Shown here: positions 5,744 to 48,284 of the stretch, piece after piece
How the letters are laid out: each line of letters begins with the position of its first letter
How positions within the stretch are numbered: the first letter of the stretch is position 1
Assembly: GCA_011915565.1 (NCBI GenBank)
Contig: GCA_011915565.1_3920.1
Length of the DNA stretch: 64,000 bases
DNA from: a phage
Direction: 5' to 3' (one strand)
Made by a program: the position numbers and the translations under genes
Notes under the pieces: generated by a model
Seen by the model: only the letters and a program-made list of their open reading frames with translations
The model's database searches: none
Told to the model about the DNA's origin: nothing

Positions 5744-5760
5744 ATCTGTAGGATTAGAAA

Positions 5761-7995
5761 ATGATTAAGACAATTAAAAAATCAAATGGTACAGTAGTAA
5801 GCTTTGACCCAGAAAGACTGAATAAGTGGGCATCATGGGCAGATAAACGTGGAATTATCTGGTCAGAAGTCACTATGGAAGCTATGAAACGTGTCTATGA
5901 GGGTTGCACTACAAAAGAGATGCACCAAGCCATGATTGATGTTTGTGTTGATAAACAAACTCAAGAGTACTCAGATATGGCTGGACGACTGCTTTTGGGT
6001 ATTATCTACAAAGAAGCCTTTGGAGGCTTTACTAAGGTTCCTACGCTGATTACCTTCGTTAAAAATATGGAGAGAGCAGGACTTTGGGAGAAGATGGATT
6101 ATTCACAGGAAGAGCTTGAATACCTGCAAGGTTACATCGTGCACTCAAAAGATATCTCTTACGGTTATGCAGTCTTGAAACAGTTCAGAGACAAGTACGG
6201 TATCCGTGATATTAAAACGGGAAGACTGTTTGAGTCACCACAATTTATGTTCATGGGTATGGCTATGAAAGCCTTTGAGAAGCAACCAAAGCACCGTAGA
6301 CTGCAAGATGTTATCAAGCTGTACACTTACCTATCTGACCTGAAGATTAACGCTCCTACGCCCTATTTAAACGGGTTAAGAGCAACTAAATCAGGTTATG
6401 CGTCATGCTGTTTGATTAAGGCAAATGACACTGCTGAATCACTTGGTATTGCTGCAAAGGTTGCTTATGATATGACTACAAAGCAAGCTGGTATTGGTAT
6501 GCTTATGGAGACTCGCACTATTGGTGATGGTATCCGTCAAAATACTATTGAGCACATGGGTAAGCTACCTTATTACAAGCTTGTACGTTCATCTGTAGAG
6601 GCAAATAAACAGAAGAGCCGTGGTGGTTCAGCTAATAACTTCTACACTGCTCTAGACCCGCAGATTGAAGATTTACTGCGTTTGAAGCACCCTACAACGG
6701 TTCCTTCTAAACGTATTAATGAGATGGACTATTCATTCGGCACAAACGATTATTTCTGGCAGTGTGTTCAGTATGATACAGATTGGTTGCTATTCTCTTA
6801 CAAAGATGCACCAAAACTCTATGACATGTTCTACACAGCATCTGCTGATGAGTTTGCTATGGCAGTTGGTCATGCAGTACATTCAGGTGTTAAGCACAGA
6901 CGGGTAAAGGCTCGTGAAATTGCTAAGCTGTTTATTCAACAGCGTTATGCTACAGGTCGTGTGTATCCATTCTTCACTAACAATGTAAACACACATACAC
7001 CATTTAAAGAACCATTGAAGATGTCAAATCTTTGTATGGAAATTGTATTGCCAGTGTATGGTTTTGAGAAAGAGACAGACCTTTACAGAGATGATGCTGT
7101 GAAAGAGGATGGTGAGGTGGCTCTTTGCTTCCTAGCTAGTTTGGTTGCAGGGAGAATTTCAGAAGATGAATACGCTGACGTTGCTTATTATGCTCTTGCA
7201 ATGGTTGACTCCGTTATTGACCTTATGGATTATCCGTATCCGTCGATGCGTAACCATGTTCAGAAGCGTCGTTCTGTTGGGATTGGCCTTACAAATGTGG
7301 CTCATTACCTTGCGAAGAACTACGTGAACTACTCTTCACGAGCAGGTAAGACAAAGCTTCATGAACTTGCAGAGATGCACTCTTACTACTTACACGAAGC
7401 CTCTCTGAGACTTGCTAAAGAACGTGGTGTACCTGAGTATATGCAGTTCACTAAGTATCCTGAAGGTTGGGTTCCTCCGAAGACAGCTAACAGGAAGATT
7501 GATGAGAAGCATGATGCAAAGCTTCGTTATGATTGGGATGACTTAGCACAACGTATTAAAGAAAATGGTGGAATCCGAAACTCTGTATTAGAAGCTTACA
7601 TGCCTAATGAGAGTTCTTCACTGGCAACTAATACGACAAATGGCTTGTATCCAATTCGTGACTTTATTTTAACTAAAAAGTCTGCAACTGGTAACGTACT
7701 GTTTATTGTTCCAGATTATGAAGAGTTGAAGTATGTCTATGAAATTGCTTGGGATATTGACACCTTTGATATGATTGATTGTTATGCAATTGTTCAAAAG
7801 TTCACTGGTCAAGCTATCTCTTCAGACTTCTATGTTGACTATGCAAAGTCTAAGAAGGTATCATTGGCTCAAGCTCTGAAGTACATGATTTATGCCAACT
7901 CGGTAGGTATGAAAACCATGTACTATCTTAACAGTCGCATTGGTGTAGGTAAATCTGCACTGCAAGATGCTTATTGCGAGGGTTGTGGTGTTTAG
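5761..7995 (+). CDS. nrdA: ribonucleotide reductase class I large subunit
   Basis: 744 aa; N-terminal ATP-cone-like region (VSFDPERLNKW), active-site-like CCLIKAND, C-terminal CEGCG tail. Confidence 0.85.
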   Translation: MIKTIKKSNGTVVSFDPERLNKWASWADKRGIIWSEVTMEAMKRVYEGCTTKEMHQAMIDVCVDKQTQEYSDMAGRLLLGIIYKEAFGGFTKVPTLITFVKNMERAGLWEKMDYSQEELEYLQGYIVHSKDISYGYAVLKQFRDKYGIRDIKTGRLFESPQFMFMGMAMKAFEKQPKHRRLQDVIKLYTYLSDLKINAPTPYLNGLRATKSGYASCCLIKANDTAESLGIAAKVAYDMTTKQAGIGMLMETRTIGDGIRQNTIEHMGKLPYYKLVRSSVEANKQKSRGGSANNFYTALDPQIEDLLRLKHPTTVPSKRINEMDYSFGTNDYFWQCVQYDTDWLLFSYKDAPKLYDMFYTASADEFAMAVGHAVHSGVKHRRVKAREIAKLFIQQRYATGRVYPFFTNNVNTHTPFKEPLKMSNLCMEIVLPVYGFEKETDLYRDDAVKEDGEVALCFLASLVAGRISEDEYADVAYYALAMVDSVIDLMDYPYPSMRNHVQKRRSVGIGLTNVAHYLAKNYVNYSSRAGKTKLHELAEMHSYYLHEASLRLAKERGVPEYMQFTKYPEGWVPPKTANRKIDEKHDAKLRYDWDDLAQRIKENGGIRNSVLEAYMPNESSSLATNTTNGLYPIRDFILTKKSATGNVLFIVPDYEELKYVYEIAWDIDTFDMIDCYAIVQKFTGQAISSDFYVDYAKSKKVSLAQALKYMIYANSVGMKTMYYLNSRIGVGKSALQDAYCEGCGV

Positions 7996-42567: not shown

Positions 42568-43983
42568 ATGAGCGAATTATTTAAACATGCGCACCTTCAT
42601 GCAGGTCGAACTGAAAATGGTGCTGTAAACCATACTTCATCAATGTCTGCTCTTGTAGACTTTTACAAAGCTGCTGGTTCAAGCCGTAGCAATGTAGAAA
42701 TCTTACCAGACCTGTTCTACAAAGCTTTGCGTGAGGATGTTGATGTTGCAGTTCGTATTTTACTGCATATGCGAGATGTACGAGAAGGTATGGGTGAGCG
42801 TAAGGCCTTCAGAACTGTTTTACTTCAAGCGATTGAAGACAAAGTTTTAGAGCCTACGCAGGTTCTTCGCATTATGGATAAGGTTGCAGAACTTGGTCGT
42901 TTTGATGACTTCAAAATCTTCGTAGGTACTCGTTTCGAGACAGATGCCTTCAAGCATTTAGAAGCAGCATTACTAGACCCTGCAACAGCAGGTTTGGCGG
43001 CTAAGTGGTTACCACGAGTCAAACCACGTCATAAGCAGTTTGTAAAACGTTTCTGCAAGTTTGCCAACTTGAGTGAGAAAGAGTACCGCACACTGTTGTC
43101 TGCACTATCTGATACAGTTGAGCAAAAAATCTCTGCTAATGAGTTTGGTAAGATTGATTACAGCAAGATTCCTTCACTTGCTGCTGCACGTTACCAAAAA
43201 CTCTTTAACCGTAAAGATGGGGAACGTTACAAAGCTTACATTGAGTCTTTATCAAAGGGCGAGGCTAAGATTAATGCTGGTGCTGTTTACCCATACGATG
43301 TGATTAAATCTGTTAAGTATGGTAATGCAGATGTTGCTAATGAGCAGTGGAAAGCACTACCAAACTGGATGGCAGAAGGTGAAAACATCCTATGTATGAC
43401 TGATGTTTCAAGCTCAATGTATTGGGTGAATTTTGGTTCAATCACTGCACTTGATATTGGTGTATCACTTGCCTTGTATGTAGCAGAACGCAATACAGGT
43501 TGCTTTAAGGATGAGTTGATGGTTTATTCAACAAACCCTCACTTCATCGAACTGAGTGGTGATTTACGAAACCGTCATCGTCAGGTGATGCGACACGTTG
43601 AATATGGCTCAACCAACTTACAAGCAGCTTTTGACCGCATTCTTGAAACAGGTAAAAGAAACAACTTGACTCAGAAAGATATGCCAAGTAAGCTTATCAT
43701 CTTCTCCGATATGGAGTTTAATCAGGTTGATGGTGCTAATGGTCGTACAAACTTCGAAGCAATTCGAGATAAGTACGAAAAAGCTGGATATGAGATGCCA
43801 CAACTGGTATTCTGGTACTTAGCAAACCGTAATGGTACTTGCGAAGTATCTATTAAGGATAACGGTGTAGCAATGGTATCTGGTTTCTCTCCAGCCACTT
43901 TAAAAGCTTTGCTTGGTGGTGAGAAGTTTGACCCAATCAGCGTAATGCTCAAAGCAGTAATGATTGACCGTTACATCTGGTAA
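42568..43983 (+). CDS. von Willebrand factor A (vWA) domain protein with N-terminal helical domain
   Basis: 471 aa; MIDAS-like DVSSSM at about residue 280; domain order resembles Ro60/TROVE or DUF2828-type proteins (inference). Confidence 0.7.
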   Translation: MSELFKHAHLHAGRTENGAVNHTSSMSALVDFYKAAGSSRSNVEILPDLFYKALREDVDVAVRILLHMRDVREGMGERKAFRTVLLQAIEDKVLEPTQVLRIMDKVAELGRFDDFKIFVGTRFETDAFKHLEAALLDPATAGLAAKWLPRVKPRHKQFVKRFCKFANLSEKEYRTLLSALSDTVEQKISANEFGKIDYSKIPSLAAARYQKLFNRKDGERYKAYIESLSKGEAKINAGAVYPYDVIKSVKYGNADVANEQWKALPNWMAEGENILCMTDVSSSMYWVNFGSITALDIGVSLALYVAERNTGCFKDELMVYSTNPHFIELSGDLRNRHRQVMRHVEYGSTNLQAAFDRILETGKRNNLTQKDMPSKLIIFSDMEFNQVDGANGRTNFEAIRDKYEKAGYEMPQLVFWYLANRNGTCEVSIKDNGVAMVSGFSPATLKALLGGEKFDPISVMLKAVMIDRYIW

Positions 43984-44002
43984 AAAGTTTTAAAAAGGGT
44001 AT

Positions 44003-44031
44003 TGACAATGTGTTTAATACCCTTTAATATG
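44003..44031 (+). promoter_or_regulatory. sigma70-like promoter (TTGACA-17-TAATAT) with overlapping inverted repeat
   Basis: GGGTATT...AATACCC palindrome spans the -35 and spacer; heads the tRNA array. Confidence 0.55.
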
Positions 44032-44148
44032 TTCTACATAGAAACGAGATGAGGGCTTTTCTAAGATACTGAAAAATATTTTAAAAAAGTTCTTGACAAC
44101 CACTAAAAAATAATGTTAAAGTGGTTACATAGAGTTTGAAAAGTTTAT

Positions 44149-44310: not shown

Positions 44311-44315
44311 GTTTT

Positions 44316-44392
44316 GACAGAAGACCAATTACAGCAAACTTAATCTTATTCATCTGAAGGTAAATCGGACAAAGAAGAGATTTGGTCTGGTC
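44316..44392 (+). other. tRNA-spacer structured element, copy 1 (CAGAAGACC...GGTCTGG)
   Basis: Conserved CAGAAGACCAATTACAGCAA head and TTGGTCTGG tail forming a 7-bp closing stem. Confidence 0.5.
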
Positions 44393-44401
44393 ATTAAGAA
44401 T

Positions 44402-44480: not shown

Positions 44481-44550
44481 TTTACAGAAGACCGTTTACA
44501 GCAATACTTATTAAATTTTTAGCGGAAAAATTGAAAGATACGGTCTGGTA
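44481..44550 (+). other. tRNA-spacer structured element, copy 2
   Basis: TTTACAGAAGACCGTTTACAGCAA...ACGGTCTGG. Confidence 0.5.
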
Positions 44551-44561
44551 ATACTAAACAT

Positions 44562-44816: not shown

Positions 44817-44875
44817 ATTTTGAGAGGGCTATTTAGTTCCTCCCTTAAAGAGTTCTTACGAGTATTCTTTAAAGG

Positions 44876-44952
44876 AGCAGAAGACCAAATACAGCAAGAA
44901 TGTATGAAATTTCAAGCCAATTTAATTTTGAAAATTTAAAACTTGGTCTGGC
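44876..44952 (+). other. tRNA-spacer structured element, copy 3
   Basis: GCAGAAGACCAAATACAGCAA...CTTGGTCTGG. Confidence 0.5.
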
Positions 44953-44963
44953 TCAACAAATTT

Positions 44964-45098
44964 ACAGAAGACCGTTTACAGCAAAACTTAAACAATCTAT
45001 TTCTCCGGTAAAGAAAAGGCGAAGGTTCGATTCCTTCACTCGGCAGATGTCGAGTTGGTGTAATGGTAGCACTTAAGATGATAAACAACGGTCTGGTA
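44964..45098 (+). other. tRNA-spacer structured element, copy 4, containing a degenerate tRNA-like segment
   Basis: TTTACAGAAGACCGTTTACAGCAA head; T-arm-like GAAGG-TTCGATT-CCTTC, hairpin ACTCGGCA/TGTCGAGT, D-arm-like TGGTGTAATGGTAGCAC, then ACGGTCTGG. Confidence 0.45.
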
Positions 45099-45239
45099 AT
45101 TATCTTTGTAGATAAGTTATTAAGCTTACCTGTGAGTATGCGACCACAAAGGGTGAAGGGTAAATTCTAGATTTAAACCCAAAAGGCACATCGCTACAGA
45201 CCTTAAGCAAGTCTGGGTAGCTTATCTACAAAGATAATT
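45098..45239 (+). other. perfect 19-bp inverted repeat enclosing 104 nt
   Basis: AATTATCTTTGTAGATAAG at 45098-45116 and its exact reverse complement at 45221-45239; lies between spacer element 4 and tRNA-Lys. Confidence 0.6.
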
Positions 45240-45243
45240 TAAT

Positions 45244-45551: not shown

Positions 45552-45566
45552 ATTTCAATAAAGTTG

Positions 45567-45595
45567 TTGACATTGAGATGTGACTCCTTTATACT
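45567..45595 (+). promoter_or_regulatory. sigma70-like promoter (TTGACA-17-TATACT)
   Basis: Inside the tRNA array, upstream of a 200-nt hairpin-rich spacer and tRNA-Arg. Confidence 0.55.
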
Positions 45596-45797
45596 AACCT
45601 TAGTTTTCGTTGCGTAGCGTCTATTTTGCAAATTTAAAATAAATGCAAACGACAATGTTTTTCTGGCAGTAGCTTGATAGGCTAAACACCAGTGAGGTCT
45701 TCCAATCCCTCATCAAAGAATTTGGCGTACTCGCCCACGGTATGATTAATAAGGTGGGCATCTTTAAGGGCTTTCTAAGAGAGTCTTTAAAGATAAT

Positions 45798-45874: not shown

Positions 45875-46016
45875 AATAGTTAGCAGATTACTTAGACGGC
45901 CTTAGCGGGTCTTCCTGTAGGGAGGTGGTCTGTATCTCATGTTTTCCAGAACATGTAAATAATCTGAGAAGAAGCTTGACAGTGTTGAGATAACAGGGTA
46001 AGCTTCGAATTATAAT

Positions 46017-46099
46017 ATGGGACGATGTTAAGACTCTAAGGCATGAGCAACGGCCTCCAAAACCGTTTCAAAGGGGTTCAACTCCTCCGTCCCATGCCA
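46017..46099 (+). tRNA. tRNA-Trp (anticodon CCA)
   Basis: Acceptor ATGGGAC/GTCCCAT; anticodon loop CTCCAAA; 83 nt with enlarged D region; preceded by TATAAT. Confidence 0.55.
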
Positions 46100-46112
46100 A
46101 AGTCTTATTAGG

Positions 46113-48253: not shown

Positions 48254-48284
48254 CTTCTAAGGATTCTTACGAGAGTCCTTAAAT

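What the first reader, a model, noticed from the sequence alone, without database searches (positions are those of the whole stretch)
45001..45080. Degenerate or rearranged tRNA-like segment inside spacer element 4
The segment contains a canonical T-arm (GAAGG-TTCGATT-CCTTC), then ACTCGGCA which pairs with the immediately following TGTCGAGT (acceptor-like helix drawn as a local hairpin), then a D-arm-like TGGTGTAATGGTAGCAC, but no anticodon arm in register. The 3' acceptor strand therefore precedes the 5' strand, as in a circularly permuted or broken tRNA gene. It may be a pseudo-tRNA left by recombination, a tRNA-like structure used as a processing or mimicry element, or a trace of mobile-element insertion.
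Basis: seen in the sequence. Interest (0 to 1): 0.5.

Follow-up and report, generated by a model that had tools for sequence, protein, structure and literature searches.

The report
Phage Y RNA with tRNA-shaped domain
The "broken tRNA" is the conserved tRNA-shaped half of a small non-coding RNA of the Y RNA type, encoded next to the phage's own Ro60-like ring protein, and it reveals a widespread, so far undescribed set of phage RNAs marked by the box UACAGCAA.

Summary
Window 45021-45072 (+) holds a T arm, a 7-bp acceptor stem closed by a 4-nt loop, and a D arm. That is a tRNA cloverleaf circularly permuted at position 26/27. It is not a relic. The acceptor hairpin shows changes on both sides at 6 of 7 pairs across Ounavirinae and one unrelated phage group, while the T and D arms are almost invariant. 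The domain sits at the tip of a ~138-nt RNA (44962-45099) whose ends pair and whose 5' strand is followed by the box UACAGCAA. Three shorter paralogues with the same stem and box lie in neighbouring tRNA spacers. About 1 kb upstream on the same strand is a 471-aa ORF (Pfam DUF2828) whose predicted fold matches Ro60/Rsr proteins. This is the architecture of YrlA-type Y RNAs, but the canonical CGAA motif and the Rfam YrlA model do not match. The stem-plus-box module is about 10-fold enriched beside DUF2828 genes in 75 diverse phage contigs, and it occurs in Mycobacterium, Listeria, Campylobacter and Yersinia phages. It also resembles Dictyostelium Class I RNAs. Verdict: a new variant of a known kind. 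RNA expression, protein binding and function are all inferred, not shown.

The parts
42568..43983 (+). ORF of 471 aa encoding a Ro60-like ring protein (Pfam DUF2828 + DUF7788). It is the presumed protein partner of the RNA.
   Evidence: Pfam hits at E 2e-29 and 2e-42. PHROG 850 'RNA-binding protein'. AlphaFold2 model with pLDDT 88.8. The top 12 Foldseek PDB hits are all Ro60/Rsr, including Thermus phage phiLo Ro60, with E 6e-8 to 2e-6 and TM up to 0.69. The orthologous Bas63 gp130 is described as Ro60-like (PMC11482910).
44002..44122 (+). Two sigma-70-like promoters (44002-44030 and 44093-44122) between the Ro60-like ORF and the first tRNA. They are the likely start of the tRNA / Y-like RNA precursor.
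   Evidence: Consensus scan gives 10 of 12 matches for each. These are consensus matches only; no transcription data exist.
44314..44393 (+). Module M1, a short Y-like RNA. Outer helix UGAC/GUCA, 5' internal loop AGA, inner helix AGACCAA/UUGGUCU, box UACAGCAA at 44330-44337.
   Evidence: Rfam Dicty_Class_I_RNA gives 19.7 bits at 44323-44389.
44481..44551 (+). Module M2, a short Y-like RNA with box at 44497-44504.
   Evidence: Rfam Dicty_Class_I_RNA gives 20.3 bits at 44490-44547.
44874..44954 (+). Module M3, a short Y-like RNA with box at 44890-44897. Its outer helix is GAGC/GCUC, which covaries with the outer helices of M1, M2 and M4.
   Evidence: It is nearly invariant across three genera.
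44962..45099 (+). Module M4, the whole YrlA-like RNA that contains the finding.
   Evidence: The minimum-free-energy fold gives a basal stem plus a permuted cloverleaf. It is conserved in Felixounavirus, Suspvirus and Mooglevirus.
44962..44975 (+). 5' strand of the basal stem: outer helix UUAC (44962-44965), internal loop AGA (44966-44968), inner helix AGACCGU (44969-44975).
   Evidence: It pairs with 45088-45099. The two positions after CC covary among the four paralogues as AA:UU or GU:AC.
44977..44984 (+). Box UACAGCAA, predicted single-stranded, immediately 3' of the 5' stem strand. It is the proposed recognition element for the Ro60-like protein.
   Evidence: There are 4 exact copies of CAGAAGACCNNNTACAGCAA in the window against 0.21 expected. 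The box is enriched at 1.05 per kb within 600 nt of DUF2828 genes on the same strand, against 0.13 per kb on the opposite strand.
45000..45016 (+). Hairpin UUUCU-CCGGUAA-AGAAA, equivalent to the 'V' stem-loop of YrlA. It probably derives from an anticodon arm.
   Evidence: It is 80% paired across the alignment, with a loop of 6 or 7 nt and variable loop sequence.
45021..45037 (+). T arm GAAGG-UUCGAUU-CCUUC.
   Evidence: 100% paired and almost invariant in 15 distinct sequences, including the unrelated L007 phage group.
45038..45055 (+). Capped acceptor stem: ACUCGGC, loop A-GAU, GUCGAGU (7 bp).
   Evidence: 6 of 7 pairs show changes on both sides and 98.1% of cells are paired. Mooglevirus has ACCCUUC-G-CCA-AACA-GAAGGGU, with an encoded CCA.
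45056..45072 (+). Linker UG plus D arm GUGU-AAUGGUA-GCAC.
   Evidence: 100% paired and almost invariant. A14, G18, G19 and A21 equivalents are present (sequence).
45088..45099 (+). 3' strand of the basal stem: ACGGUCU, unpaired G, then GUAA.
45098..45240 (+). Long branched hairpin immediately 3' of M4. Its relation to the Y-like RNA is unknown.
   Evidence: A stem of about 24 bp appears in the fold of the whole spacer (z-score -4.28). The stem and the inner hairpin CAGAC-CUUAAGCAA-GUCUG covary between the Felix and SUSP2/Moogle types. It is absent from some relatives.

Best explanation
The segment is the tRNA-mimic domain of a roughly 138-nt non-coding RNA of the Y RNA class, closest to bacterial YrlA.

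Anatomy:
- The two ends of the RNA pair into a bulged basal helix.
- The 5' strand of that helix is followed by the single-stranded box UACAGCAA.
- The distal part folds as a circularly permuted tRNA: a variable-arm-like hairpin, a T arm, a 7-bp acceptor stem closed by a loop, and a D arm.
- The T loop and D loop can therefore form the tRNA elbow.

Context (shown): the RNA lies in the phage tRNA array, about 1 kb downstream of a phage gene for a Ro60-like ring protein on the same strand. Three shorter RNAs in the same array share the stem and box but lack the tRNA-like part.

Proposed mechanism (inferred by analogy with Ro60-Y RNA particles):
- The stem plus box docks on the Ro60-like protein.
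- The tRNA-shaped domain recruits a tRNA-binding or RNA-degrading host factor, or gates access to the ring. In this way the phage would redirect host RNA decay or repair, or counter a defence system.
- Because the acceptor stem is kept at 7 bp, the hairpin may also be opened by RNase P and given a CCA tail, as happens for Mycobacterium smegmatis YrlA.

Shown here: the anatomy, the conservation, the covariation, the gene neighbourhood and its recurrence in unrelated phages. Inferred only: that the RNA is made, that it binds the protein, how it is processed, and what it does.
For: - **Architecture.** The order is T arm, capped acceptor stem, D arm, enclosed by a terminal stem and preceded by a V hairpin. 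This is the YrlA layout described in PMC4201824 and bioRxiv 10.1101/312249. T arm length (17 nt) and D arm length (15 nt) are the same as in YrlA.
- **Selection.** The acceptor helix has changes on both sides at 6 of 7 pairs and is 98% paired. The T and D arms are almost invariant.
- **Elbow nucleotides.** U8, A14, G18, G19, A21, U54, U55, C56 and A58 equivalents are all present (sequence).
- **Partner gene.** ORF 42568-43983 has a Ro60 fold. It lies on the same strand and ends 979 nt upstream of the RNA. Every Ounavirinae locus that carries the element and reaches far enough upstream also has this gene.
- **Paralogues.** Four modules in the window share CAGAAGACCNNNUACAGCAA...GGUCUGG, with covarying stems.
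- **Generality.**
  - In 75 diverse IMG/VR loci with a DUF2828 gene of 38-48% identity, stem-plus-box modules reach 0.80 per kb within 600 nt of the gene on its strand. Elsewhere or on the other strand the density is 0.08-0.13 per kb. 51 of the 75 loci have at least one such module.
  - Mycobacterium phage Lewan has three modules directly after its 'Ro-like RNA binding protein' gene. The middle one holds a T arm, a 7-bp capped stem, UA and a D arm.
  - Listeria WIL-1, Campylobacter CPX and Yersinia P778 also carry modules next to the gene.
- **Rfam YrlA in relatives.** Model RF02553 gives sub-threshold hits on such modules: L064 39.2 bits, L120 38.9 and 28.7 bits, Lewan 21.1 bits.
- **Literature.** Felixounavirus Bas63 gp130 is Ro60-like and counters the Ppl defence. 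Its authors guessed that Y RNAs hide among the tRNAs (PMC11482910). Thermus phage phiLo Ro60 binds two phage Y-like RNAs and host PNPase (PMC12135203).
Against: - The canonical Ro60-binding motif GNCGAAN0-1G (CGAA) is absent from the 5' strand. The only GGCGAAG, at 45018-45024, lies at the V-loop/T-stem junction and is not conserved.
- Rfam YrlA (RF02553) gives no hit on the window element even at E up to 10.
- The T and D stems (GAAGG/CCUUC and GUGU/GCAC) differ from those of a canonical YrlA. Bxz1 has GCGGG/CCCGU and GCUC/GAGC.
- The Levitt-pair equivalent is A paired with C or A.
- The protein is not recognised by Pfam TROVE. Its similarity to Ro60 rests on a predicted structure.
- A distinct phage group (L007 type) has the same T and D arms but no DUF2828 gene within 5-8 kb.
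- No expression, binding or processing data exist for this RNA.
- Thermodynamic z-scores of the single modules are modest, from -1.1 to -1.6.
Confidence: 0.78

Rival explanations
1. It is the tRNA-like domain of a two-piece (circularly permuted) tmRNA. The acceptor piece ends in CCA, and the coding piece carries the tag ANDNVFLAVA that is encoded further downstream.
For: - ARAGORN with default settings calls a 'permuted tmRNA' in Citrobacter phage Moogle. Its 3' tRNA domain is the orthologue of this element (V hairpin, T arm, ACCCUUC-G-CCA), and its tag is ANDNVFLAVA**.
- The Moogle genome announcement reports an ssrA found with ARAGORN (PMC4319497).
- A tag-like frame at window 45645-45677 is conserved, with synonymous changes, in three genera.
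- Rfam gives sub-threshold tmRNA hits in that spacer.
Against: - ARAGORN's '5' tRNA domain' lies inside tRNA-Lys, not at the true complementary strand, so the call is a chimera.
- The tag lies about 600 nt away, beyond three functional tRNA genes and behind its own strong promoter at 45567-45595.
- None of the four acceptor-stem types has the G3:U70 alanine identity pair.
- The element has a full 4-bp D arm and is closed by its own basal stem. It shares that stem and box with three paralogues that have no tRNA-like part.
- CCA is encoded only in Mooglevirus.
- ARAGORN finds no tmRNA in the window at default threshold.
Confidence: 0.04
2. It is a functional permuted tRNA gene. The transcript would be rejoined at 26/27 and opened at the acceptor loop to give a normal decoding tRNA, as happens in the red alga Cyanidioschyzon merolae.
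For: - All four arms are present in permuted order, and the hairpin 45000-45016 has a 5-bp stem and a 7-nt loop.
- The SUSP2 and Sf13 types have a canonical CU-GGU-AA loop.
- The acceptor stem is 7 bp, and Mooglevirus encodes CCA.
Against: - The 'anticodon' loop is 6 nt in many Felixounavirus genomes and 7 nt in others. It has C rather than U at position 33 in the window. It reads GGU, or AUG in L030, and the arm is different in Mooglevirus.
- No bacterial or phage machinery is known that joins 26 to 27 (established knowledge).
- The flanks are not intron-like. They are the stem and box shared with three non-tRNA paralogues.
- Rfam finds no group I intron here.
Confidence: 0.04
3. It is a decaying pseudo-tRNA: the junction of two tandem tRNA copies or a recombination scar, with no present function.
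For: - The layout (3' two-thirds of a tRNA followed by the 5' third with a complementary acceptor strand) is what a tandem duplication of one tRNA gene would leave.
- The Mooglevirus form G-CCA-AACA looks like discriminator, CCA and a typical 4-nt inter-tRNA spacer of this array.
- This fits the dimeric-tRNA origin proposed for YrlA (bioRxiv 10.1101/312249).
Against: - Compensatory changes keep the acceptor helix paired in four sequence types.
- The T and D arms are more conserved than the surrounding spacer, and are identical in an unrelated AT-rich phage group.
- The enclosing stem and box form a recurrent, positionally enriched module.
- A neutral relic would not show this pattern.
Confidence: 0.04
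4. It is a tRNA mimic that works without the Ro60-like protein. For example, it could be a decoy or inhibitor for a host tRNA-targeting defence enzyme, or an RNase P 'punctuation' site that shapes processing of the tRNA precursor.
For: - The tRNA elbow and a 7-bp acceptor stem are conserved, and these are features read by RNase P and many tRNA enzymes.
- The L007 group carries the same domain without a nearby DUF2828 gene.
- Phage tRNA arrays are often linked to escape from tRNA-cleaving defences (general knowledge).
Against: - It does not explain why the domain is always set in the stem-plus-box module, or why that module tracks DUF2828 genes in unrelated phages on the same strand.
- It lacks a conserved anticodon loop, which is the target of most known tRNA-cleaving defence nucleases.
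Confidence: 0.1

Closest known systems
YrlA-type bacterial and phage Y RNAs (Salmonella Typhimurium, Mycobacterium smegmatis, mycobacteriophage Bxz1; Rfam RF02553)
   Same: - The order is terminal stem, V stem-loop, T arm, capped acceptor stem-loop, 2-nt linker, D arm, terminal stem.
- T arm (17 nt) and D arm (15 nt) sizes match, and the elbow nucleotides are present.
- It is encoded within 4 kb of a Ro60-type gene on the same strand.
- It is accompanied by shorter Y RNAs.
- The 7-bp acceptor stem matches M. smegmatis YrlA, which RNase P cuts and which then receives CCA.

   Different: - There is no GNCGAAN0-1G/CGAA motif. A UACAGCAA box follows the 5' stem strand instead.
- The T and D stem sequences differ.
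- The Levitt pair is not kept.
- Rfam YrlA gives no hit in the window.
- The partner protein belongs to Pfam DUF2828, not TROVE.
- The RNAs are interleaved with the genes of a tRNA array.
Thermus phage phiLo Ro60 with Yrl1 and Yrl2 (PMC12135203)
   Same: A lytic phage encodes both a Ro60-fold ring protein and small stem-bulge-stem RNAs next to it. The phiLo protein is among the best structural matches (9kop and 9l5y).
   Different: The phiLo RNAs were found through their CGAA motif and have no tRNA-like domain. They lie upstream of the gene. Binding and a PNPase complex are shown experimentally there, but not here.
Class I RNAs of dictyostelid social amoebae (Rfam RF01414; PMC7919456)
   Same: - A short terminal stem joins the 5' and 3' ends, with a conserved 5' G and a 3' CUG(U).
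- A single-stranded conserved motif lies directly 3' of the 5' stem strand: CCUUACAGCAA in amoebae, UUACAGCAA in M2 and M4.
- The interior is variable and the typical length is about 60 nt.
- Genes occur in clusters.
- RF01414 is the model that picks up the phage modules over its full length: M1 19.7, M2 20.3 and M4 12.8 bits, Listeria phage WIL-1 23.1 bits, L060 25.4 bits.
   Different: - All scores are below the gathering score of 41.5.
- The amoeba genes have a eukaryotic upstream element.
- The known direct binder is an RRM protein (Rnp1A).
- Class I RNAs have no tRNA-like insert.
- The family has been reported as unique to Dictyostelia.
- Whether dictyostelids have a DUF2828 protein could not be tested here.
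Two-piece (circularly permuted) tmRNA
   Same: A T arm and 3' acceptor strand precede the 5' acceptor strand in the gene. Mooglevirus encodes CCA at the junction. Maturation by RNase P into two base-paired pieces is conceivable.
   Different: There is no G3:U70 pair. A full D arm is present. No tag reading frame or pseudoknots lie within the unit. The domain is closed by its own stem.
Circularly permuted tRNA genes of Cyanidioschyzon merolae and some archaea
   Same: The 3' part of the tRNA is encoded before the 5' part, and the acceptor stem is initially a closed hairpin.
   Different: Those genes keep a functional anticodon arm and are processed through a circular intermediate by the splicing endonuclease and ligase. 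Here the 'anticodon' hairpin is not conserved, and no such pathway is known in bacteria.

Membership tests
YrlA-type Y RNA | tRNA-like domain in permuted order: T arm, then acceptor stem closed by a loop, then D arm | tested here: met
   Sequence and folds. It is the only such site in the window. Covariation supports the acceptor helix.
YrlA-type Y RNA | The 5' and 3' ends pair into a stem that encloses the effector domain | tested here: met
   Basal helix 44962-44975 with 45088-45099. It covaries among the four paralogues and among diverse phages.
YrlA-type Y RNA | Encoded within about 4 kb of a Ro60 orthologue, on the same strand | tested here: met
   The Ro60-fold ORF 42568-43983 (+) ends 979 nt upstream. 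The same linkage holds in the Ounavirinae loci that reach the gene and in 51 of 75 distant loci.
YrlA-type Y RNA | GNCGAAN0-1G (CGAA) motif in the 5' strand, the presumed Ro60 contact | tested here: not met
   None of the four modules has it in the 5' strand. The single GGCGAAG at 45018-45024 lies at the T stem and is not conserved. Canonical Bxz1 Y RNAs do have GGCCGAAGG / GGCCGAGAG.
YrlA-type Y RNA | Match to the Rfam YrlA covariance model (RF02553), with its near-invariant T and D stem sequences | tested here: not met
   No hit in the window at E up to 10. The stems differ from Bxz1. Related DUF2828-adjacent modules in other phages score 21-39 bits, below the gathering score of 69.
YrlA-type Y RNA | Nucleotides for tRNA tertiary contacts (U8, A14, G18, G19, A21, U54, U55, C56, A58; Levitt pair 15:48) | tested here: inconclusive
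   All elbow and U8:A14 equivalents are present. The Levitt equivalent is A:C in the window and A:A in Felix O1 and Mooglevirus. No three-dimensional test was possible.
YrlA-type Y RNA | Bound and stabilised by the Ro60 protein; modified by TruB and DusA | not testable with these tools
   This needs immunoprecipitation, gel shifts and modification mapping.
Ro60 / TROVE proteins (the partner) | HEAT-repeat ring plus von Willebrand A domain | tested here: met
   The AlphaFold2 model (pLDDT 88.8, pTM 0.88) aligns over its full length to Ro60/Rsr structures.
Ro60 / TROVE proteins (the partner) | Recognised by Pfam TROVE (PF05731) and vWA_Ro60 (PF25045) | tested here: not met
   Only DUF2828 and DUF7788 match at E up to 10. 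Bxz1 gp220 matches both TROVE and vWA_Ro60.
Two-piece tmRNA | G3:U70 alanine identity pair in the acceptor stem | tested here: not met
   Pair 3:70 is C:G in the window and SUSP2 types, A:U in Mooglevirus and U:A in the L007 type.
Two-piece tmRNA | Tag reading frame and pseudoknots within the coding piece that starts at the 5' acceptor strand | tested here: not met
   The only tag-like frame (45645-45677) lies beyond tRNA-Lys, tRNA-Met and tRNA-Ile and behind a promoter. The ARAGORN call in Moogle is chimeric.
Permuted tRNA gene (decoding tRNA) | Conserved 7-nt anticodon loop with U33 and a fixed anticodon | tested here: not met
   The loop is 6 or 7 nt, position 33 is C or U, the 'anticodon' is GGU or AUG, and the arm is different in Mooglevirus.
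Dictyostelid Class I RNA (RF01414) | Short terminal stem with conserved 5' G and 3' CUG(U), and the motif CCUUACAGCAA next to the 5' stem strand | tested here: met
   M2 and M4 have UUUACAGCAA after the stem and end in GGUCUGG. The consensus of 67 phage modules is A-G-R-W-U-NNN-U-W-CAGCAA ... Y-C-U-G. The features themselves are as described in PMC7919456.
Dictyostelid Class I RNA (RF01414) | Score at or above Rfam's gathering threshold (41.5 bits) | tested here: not met
   Scores range from 12.8 to 25.4 bits.
Canonical tRNA | Contiguous cloverleaf found by ARAGORN or by Rfam RF00005 at or above 29 bits | tested here: not met
   ARAGORN does not call it. Rfam gives a partial match of 22-23.3 bits.

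The most novel reading that the evidence does not exclude
The stem-plus-UACAGCAA modules would be the dedicated RNA partners of the DUF2828 branch of Ro60-like proteins. That branch is present in at least 710 phage records and also occurs in mimivirus-like sequences and plants. The dictyostelid Class I RNAs would belong to the same RNA family. Their function has been open for about 20 years, and they were reported as unique to social amoebae. If so, Class I RNAs would be Y RNAs of a second Ro60 lineage. The phage versions carrying a 7-bp-acceptor tRNA mimic would be opened by RNase P and CCA-tailed into two-piece tRNA-like particles.
Probability: 0.25. Interest if true: 0.85.

Novelty: new variant of a known kind. 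Interest (0 to 1): 0.62.

Why it matters
Ro60 and its Y RNAs are conserved from bacteria to humans, yet what the tRNA-shaped domain of bacterial Y RNAs does is still unknown.

This work pins down concrete Y-like RNAs in the Felix O1 group of E. coli and Salmonella phages:
- There are four of them, and one carries a tRNA mimic.
- These phages are genetically tractable.
- The partner protein has already been linked to escape from a defence system (Ppl) in the related phage Bas63.

It also defines a different recognition box (UACAGCAA instead of CGAA). That box tracks a large, divergent Ro60-like protein family across phages of Proteobacteria, Firmicutes, Actinobacteria and Campylobacterota.

It corrects a published annotation: the 'tmRNA' called by ARAGORN in Moogle-type phages is a chimera built partly on this element.

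If the resemblance to Dictyostelium Class I RNAs reflects common descent or a common partner, it gives a direct, testable hypothesis for the function of those RNAs.

Tried and rejected
1. **Permuted group I intron.** The idea was a natural 'permuted intron-exon' that would circularise a tRNA. No Rfam intron hit appears in or around the spacer. The flanks turned out to be the stem and box shared with non-tRNA paralogues.
2. **The repeat CAGAAGACCNNNTACAGCAA as a promoter.** M3 lacks any -35-like hexamer, and the -10 candidates are poor. True promoters in the region look different.
3. **The repeat as terminal inverted repeats of a miniature mobile element.** The positions are fixed across genera, and the pairing covaries as in RNA, with G:U pairs tolerated.
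4. **tmRNA.** See the rival explanations; the ARAGORN call is chimeric.
5. **An 'anticodon-stem' helix CUUA/UAAG seen in the fold.** It is not kept in the Sf13 and SUSP2 types, so I did not include it.
6. **A coding function for the long hairpin 45098-45240.** No frame is conserved between the sequence types (inspection).
7. **A Ro60-like gene near the L007-group element.** None lies within the fetched 5-8 kb.
8. **Whether Dictyostelium has a DUF2828 protein.**
   - The AlphaFold database libraries were unavailable.
   - The key paper, Avesson 2011, is not held.
   - No eukaryotic genome collection is on offer.
9. **Supplementary alignments of Chen 2014.** They are not held, so I used mycobacteriophage Bxz1 as the canonical YrlA reference instead.
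Full report
**What the window is**

The window comes from a Felix O1-like phage (Ounavirinae). The region around the finding is 99.7% identical to Escherichia phage vB_EcoM-Ro111lw. ARAGORN finds 26 tRNA genes on the + strand between 44149 and 49368. The finding lies in the 427-nt spacer 44817-45243, between tRNA-Asp and tRNA-Lys(UUU).

**The observation**

| Element | Sequence | Coordinates |
|---|---|---|
| T arm | GAAGG-TTCGATT-CCTTC | 45021-45037 |
| Acceptor strands | ACTCGGC pairing with GTCGAGT | 45038-45044 and 45049-45055 |
| Linker | TG | 45056-45057 |
| D arm | GTGT-AATGGTA-GCAC | 45058-45072 |

- The acceptor helix is 7 bp with a 4-nt loop.
- Just upstream, TTTCT-CCGGTAA-AGAAA (45000-45016) followed by AGGC stands where an anticodon arm and variable loop would be. 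Rfam's tRNA model aligns 44955-45045 to positions 14-71 (23.3 bits).
- The gene order is therefore tRNA positions 27-73 followed by positions 1-26.
- A scan I wrote for 'T arm, adjacent hairpin, 2 nt, D arm' finds this site and no other in the 64-kb window on both strands.

**Conservation and covariation**

The spacer is found in 252 phage records. An IMG/VR pattern scan and GenBank records gave 15 distinct versions, in four acceptor-stem types:

| Type | Acceptor hairpin |
|---|---|
| Felixounavirus | ACUCGGC-A-GAU-GUCGAGU |
| Suspvirus / Sf13 | ACACGUU-A-C-GGCGUGU |
| Mooglevirus | ACCCUUC-G-CCA-AACA-GAAGGGU |
| Unrelated AT-rich phage group (L007 type) | CAACAUU-CUAGU-AAUGUUG |

- On this alignment the acceptor helix is 98% paired, with changes on both sides at 6 of 7 pairs.
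- The T and D arms are 100% paired and almost invariant.
- The covariation score is 0.233, against 0.094 for shuffles (0 of 500 reach it) and at most 0.121 for slid registers.
- The upstream hairpin is much less constrained. It is 80% paired, has a 6- or 7-nt loop within one genus, and has variable loop letters.
- This rules out a neutral relic and argues against a decoding tRNA.

**The element is part of a larger, repeated RNA module**

Folding the spacer shows that GACCGUUU upstream pairs with AAAC..GGUC downstream and encloses the cloverleaf. A repeat search and a pattern search show four copies of CAGAAGACCNNNTACAGCAA in the window (0.21 expected). Each copy is followed 40-110 nt later by GGTCTGG(T/C).

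Each of the four modules folds the same way:
- an outer 4-bp helix that covaries (UGAC/GUCA, UUAC/GUAA, GAGC/GCUC);
- an internal loop, AGA opposite G;
- an inner 7-bp helix whose variable positions covary (AA:UU or GU:AC);
- the single-stranded box UACAGCAA.

The modules are M1 (44314-44393), M2 (44481-44551), M3 (44874-44954) and M4 (44962-45099). Only M4 carries the tRNA-like domain.

**What it resembles**

This is the layout of YrlA, the tRNA-mimicking bacterial Y RNA. YrlA has a terminal stem that binds the Ro60 protein, a 'V' stem-loop, a T arm, an acceptor stem closed by a loop, a UA linker and a D arm. [quoted passage not shown]
- YrlA genes lie within 4 kb of Ro60 on the same strand.
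- They are accompanied by shorter Y RNAs.
- The one YrlA with a 7-bp acceptor stem (M. smegmatis) is cut by RNase P and receives CCA.

These points come from PMC4201824 and bioRxiv 10.1101/312249.

**The partner gene**

The ORF just upstream of the array (42568-43983, + strand, 471 aa) matches Pfam DUF2828 and DUF7788 and PHROG 850 'RNA-binding protein'.
- An AlphaFold2 model built on 44 homologues (pLDDT 88.8) has Ro60/Rsr structures as its 12 best PDB matches: Xenopus Ro60, D. radiodurans Rsr and Thermus phage phiLo Ro60. E-values run from 6e-8 to 2e-6 and TM-scores reach 0.69.
- Every Ounavirinae locus that carries the element and extends far enough upstream also has this gene.
- A 2024 preprint on the Felixounavirus Bas63 noted that the orthologue, gp130, looks like Ro60, lies upstream of the tRNAs and counters the Ppl defence. 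It guessed that some annotated tRNAs might be Y RNAs (PMC11482910).
- The RNAs identified here are not annotated tRNAs. They lie in the spacers.

**Where it departs from YrlA**

- The Ro60-contact motif GNCGAAN0-1G is absent from the 5' strands. The one GGCGAAG at 45018-45024 is at the T stem and is not conserved.
- Rfam's YrlA model gives no hit here even at E up to 10.
- For a canonical reference I read mycobacteriophage Bxz1. Its gp220 is a true TROVE + vWA_Ro60 protein. Upstream lie Y RNAs with GGCCGAAGG, GUCGGUUAYC, a T arm GCGGG/CCCGU, a long capped stem, UA and a D arm GCUC/GAGC. Rfam YrlA scores that element at 32.5 bits.
- The window element therefore shares the architecture but not the motifs.

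**Generality**

I analysed 75 diverse IMG/VR loci carrying a gene of 38-48% identity.

| Measure | Within 600 nt of the gene, same strand | Opposite strand or elsewhere |
|---|---|---|
| Stem-plus-box modules per kb | 0.80 | 0.08-0.13 |
| Box alone per kb | 1.05 | 0.13 opposite strand; 0.20-0.24 elsewhere |

- 51 of the 75 loci have at least one module near the gene on its strand.
- The consensus of 67 modules is A-G-R-W-U-NNN-U-(A/U)-CAGCAA ... Y-C-U-G.
- Ten of those modules hold a T arm. Several hold the full permuted set with acceptor stems of mostly 7 bp.

Named examples:
- Mycobacterium phage Lewan has three modules right after its 'Ro-like RNA binding protein' gene. The middle one contains CUGGG-UUCGAGU-CCCAG, UAGCGGC-CCUGU-GUCGCUA, UA and GCUU-AAGGGCA-GAGC.
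- Listeria phage WIL-1 has two modules.
- Campylobacter phage CPX has two modules.
- Yersinia phage P778 has three modules.

Rfam YrlA gives sub-threshold hits on such modules: 39.2, 38.9, 28.7 and 21.1 bits.

**An unexpected resemblance**

The only Rfam family that aligns over its full length to the modules is RF01414, the Class I RNA of Dictyostelium.

| Module | Bits |
|---|---|
| M1 | 19.7 |
| M2 | 20.3 |
| M4 | 12.8 |
| Listeria WIL-1 module | 23.1 |
| L060 module | 25.4 |

- All scores are below the gathering score of 41.5.
- The last two hits were independent tests made after the idea arose. Dividing their E-values by the number of families gives about 1e-4 to 3e-4.
- Class I RNAs are about 60-nt RNAs with a 6-bp terminal stem, an invariant 5' G, a 3' CUGU and the motif CCUUACAGCAA next to the 5' stem strand. 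Their function is unknown and they are reported as unique to Dictyostelia (PMC7919456).
- DUF2828 proteins also occur in plants and in mimivirus-like sequences.
- I could not test whether dictyostelids have a DUF2828 protein.
- I treat this as a lead, not a finding.

**Rival readings**

- **Two-piece tmRNA.** ARAGORN at default settings calls a permuted tmRNA in Moogle. Its 3' tRNA domain is the orthologue of this element, and its tag ANDNVFLAVA lies 626 nt downstream. This probably explains the 'ssrA' in the Moogle announcement. The call is a chimera:
  - its 5' tRNA domain sits inside tRNA-Lys;
  - three tRNA genes and a strong promoter separate the parts;
  - no acceptor type has G3:U70.
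- **Decoding permuted tRNA.** This fails on the unconserved 'anticodon' hairpin.
- **Permuted group I intron.** No Rfam intron hit supports it.
- **Relic of a tandem tRNA duplication.** This is a good account of the origin. The Mooglevirus junction G-CCA-AACA looks like discriminator, CCA and a typical spacer, and it fits the dimeric-tRNA origin proposed for YrlA. It does not describe the present state, because the helix is kept by compensatory change.

**Mechanism, with its status**

- Shown here: the anatomy, the conservation, the covariation, the linkage to a Ro60-fold gene, and the recurrence of that linkage in unrelated phages.
- Inferred from Ro60-Y RNA biology (PMC4201824, PMC12135203):
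  - the bulged stem and box bind the ring protein;
  - the tRNA-shaped end recruits a tRNA-binding or RNA-degrading factor such as PNPase, or gates the ring;
  - the particle reshapes host RNA decay or repair, or blocks a defence.
- Suggested by the strict 7-bp acceptor stem and the Mooglevirus CCA: opening by RNase P and addition of a CCA tail.
- None of this has been tested experimentally.

**Verdict**

The finding is real and functional. It is a Y RNA-like tRNA mimic of a divergent type. It is a new variant of a known kind, of moderate to high interest, with a more far-reaching but unproven link to amoebal Class I RNAs.

Noticed in passing
window 45645-45677 (spacer 45552-45797, + strand): A reading frame GCA AAC GAC AAT GTT TTT CTG GCA GTA GCT TGA TAG encodes ANDNVFLAVA followed by two stops. 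It is very like an ssrA/tmRNA tag (E. coli ANDENYALAA, from memory).
- It lies behind a strong promoter at 45567-45595.
- It is conserved in three genera, with synonymous changes and one V-to-A change.
- Rfam tmRNA and tmRNA_permuted hits are sub-threshold.
- I found no tRNA-like domain belonging to it.
   Followed up: partly
L131 (Citrobacter phage Moogle) 5582-6330: ARAGORN's 'permuted tmRNA' call in Moogle is a chimera of three things: the YrlA-like element, a stretch inside tRNA-Lys, and the distant tag frame. The 'ssrA' reported in Moogle-type genome announcements probably rests on this call.
   Followed up: yes
window about 46016-46096 (spacer 45875-46112, + strand): A tRNA-Trp(CCA)-like sequence that ARAGORN misses.
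- It has a 7-bp acceptor ATGGGAC/GTCCCAT followed by G-CCA, an anticodon loop CTCCAAA and a T loop TTCAACT.
- About 8 extra nt lie between the acceptor and the D stem, and there are mismatches in the anticodon and T stems.
- Trp is the only amino acid without a called tRNA in the array.
   Followed up: no
window 45098-45240: A long branched hairpin directly after the Y-like RNA. Both its roughly 24-bp stem and its inner hairpin CAGAC-CUUAAGCAA-GUCUG covary between phage genera. It is missing in some relatives. Its function is unknown.
   Followed up: partly
L007, L010, L016, L019, L039 (IMG/VR contigs of 54-136 kb): An unrelated AT-rich phage group carries the same T arm and D arm sequences with a different capped acceptor stem.
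- The domain sits inside a module with a variant box (AACUGCAA).
- That module is preceded by a plain UUACAGCAA module lying right behind a sigma-70-like promoter.
- No DUF2828 gene lies within the 5-8 kb fetched.
   Followed up: partly
L087 5742-5841: A stem-plus-UUCAGCAA module encloses a tRNA-like body in normal order (D arm, anticodon arm CUUGUAA, T arm). The terminal stem takes the place of the acceptor stem, and Rfam calls a tRNA at 5753-5824. The tRNA-like insert of these RNAs therefore comes in more than one topology.
   Followed up: no
L128 (Listeria phage WIL-1) 1-481 and 1123-1265: A ROOL RNA (Rfam RF03087, 82 bits, cut off by the locus end), a tRNA and two box modules lie in a row just upstream of the DUF2828 gene.
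- An RtcB-type 'tRNA splicing ligase' and an HD-domain gene lie downstream.
- Several tiny annotated CDS in the record overlap these RNAs.
   Followed up: no
window 44848-44872 and 48259-48283: A small hairpin with the loop region UUCUUACGAG is repeated in two spacers of the array (AAGAGTTCTTACGAGTATTCTTTAA and AAGGATTCTTACGAGAGTCCTTAAA). The first copy is invariant across genera.
   Followed up: no
L064 11696-11922: A group I intron (Rfam 71.5 bits) lies in a metagenomic phage contig that also carries the DUF2828 gene and box modules. It is unrelated to the finding.
   Followed up: no
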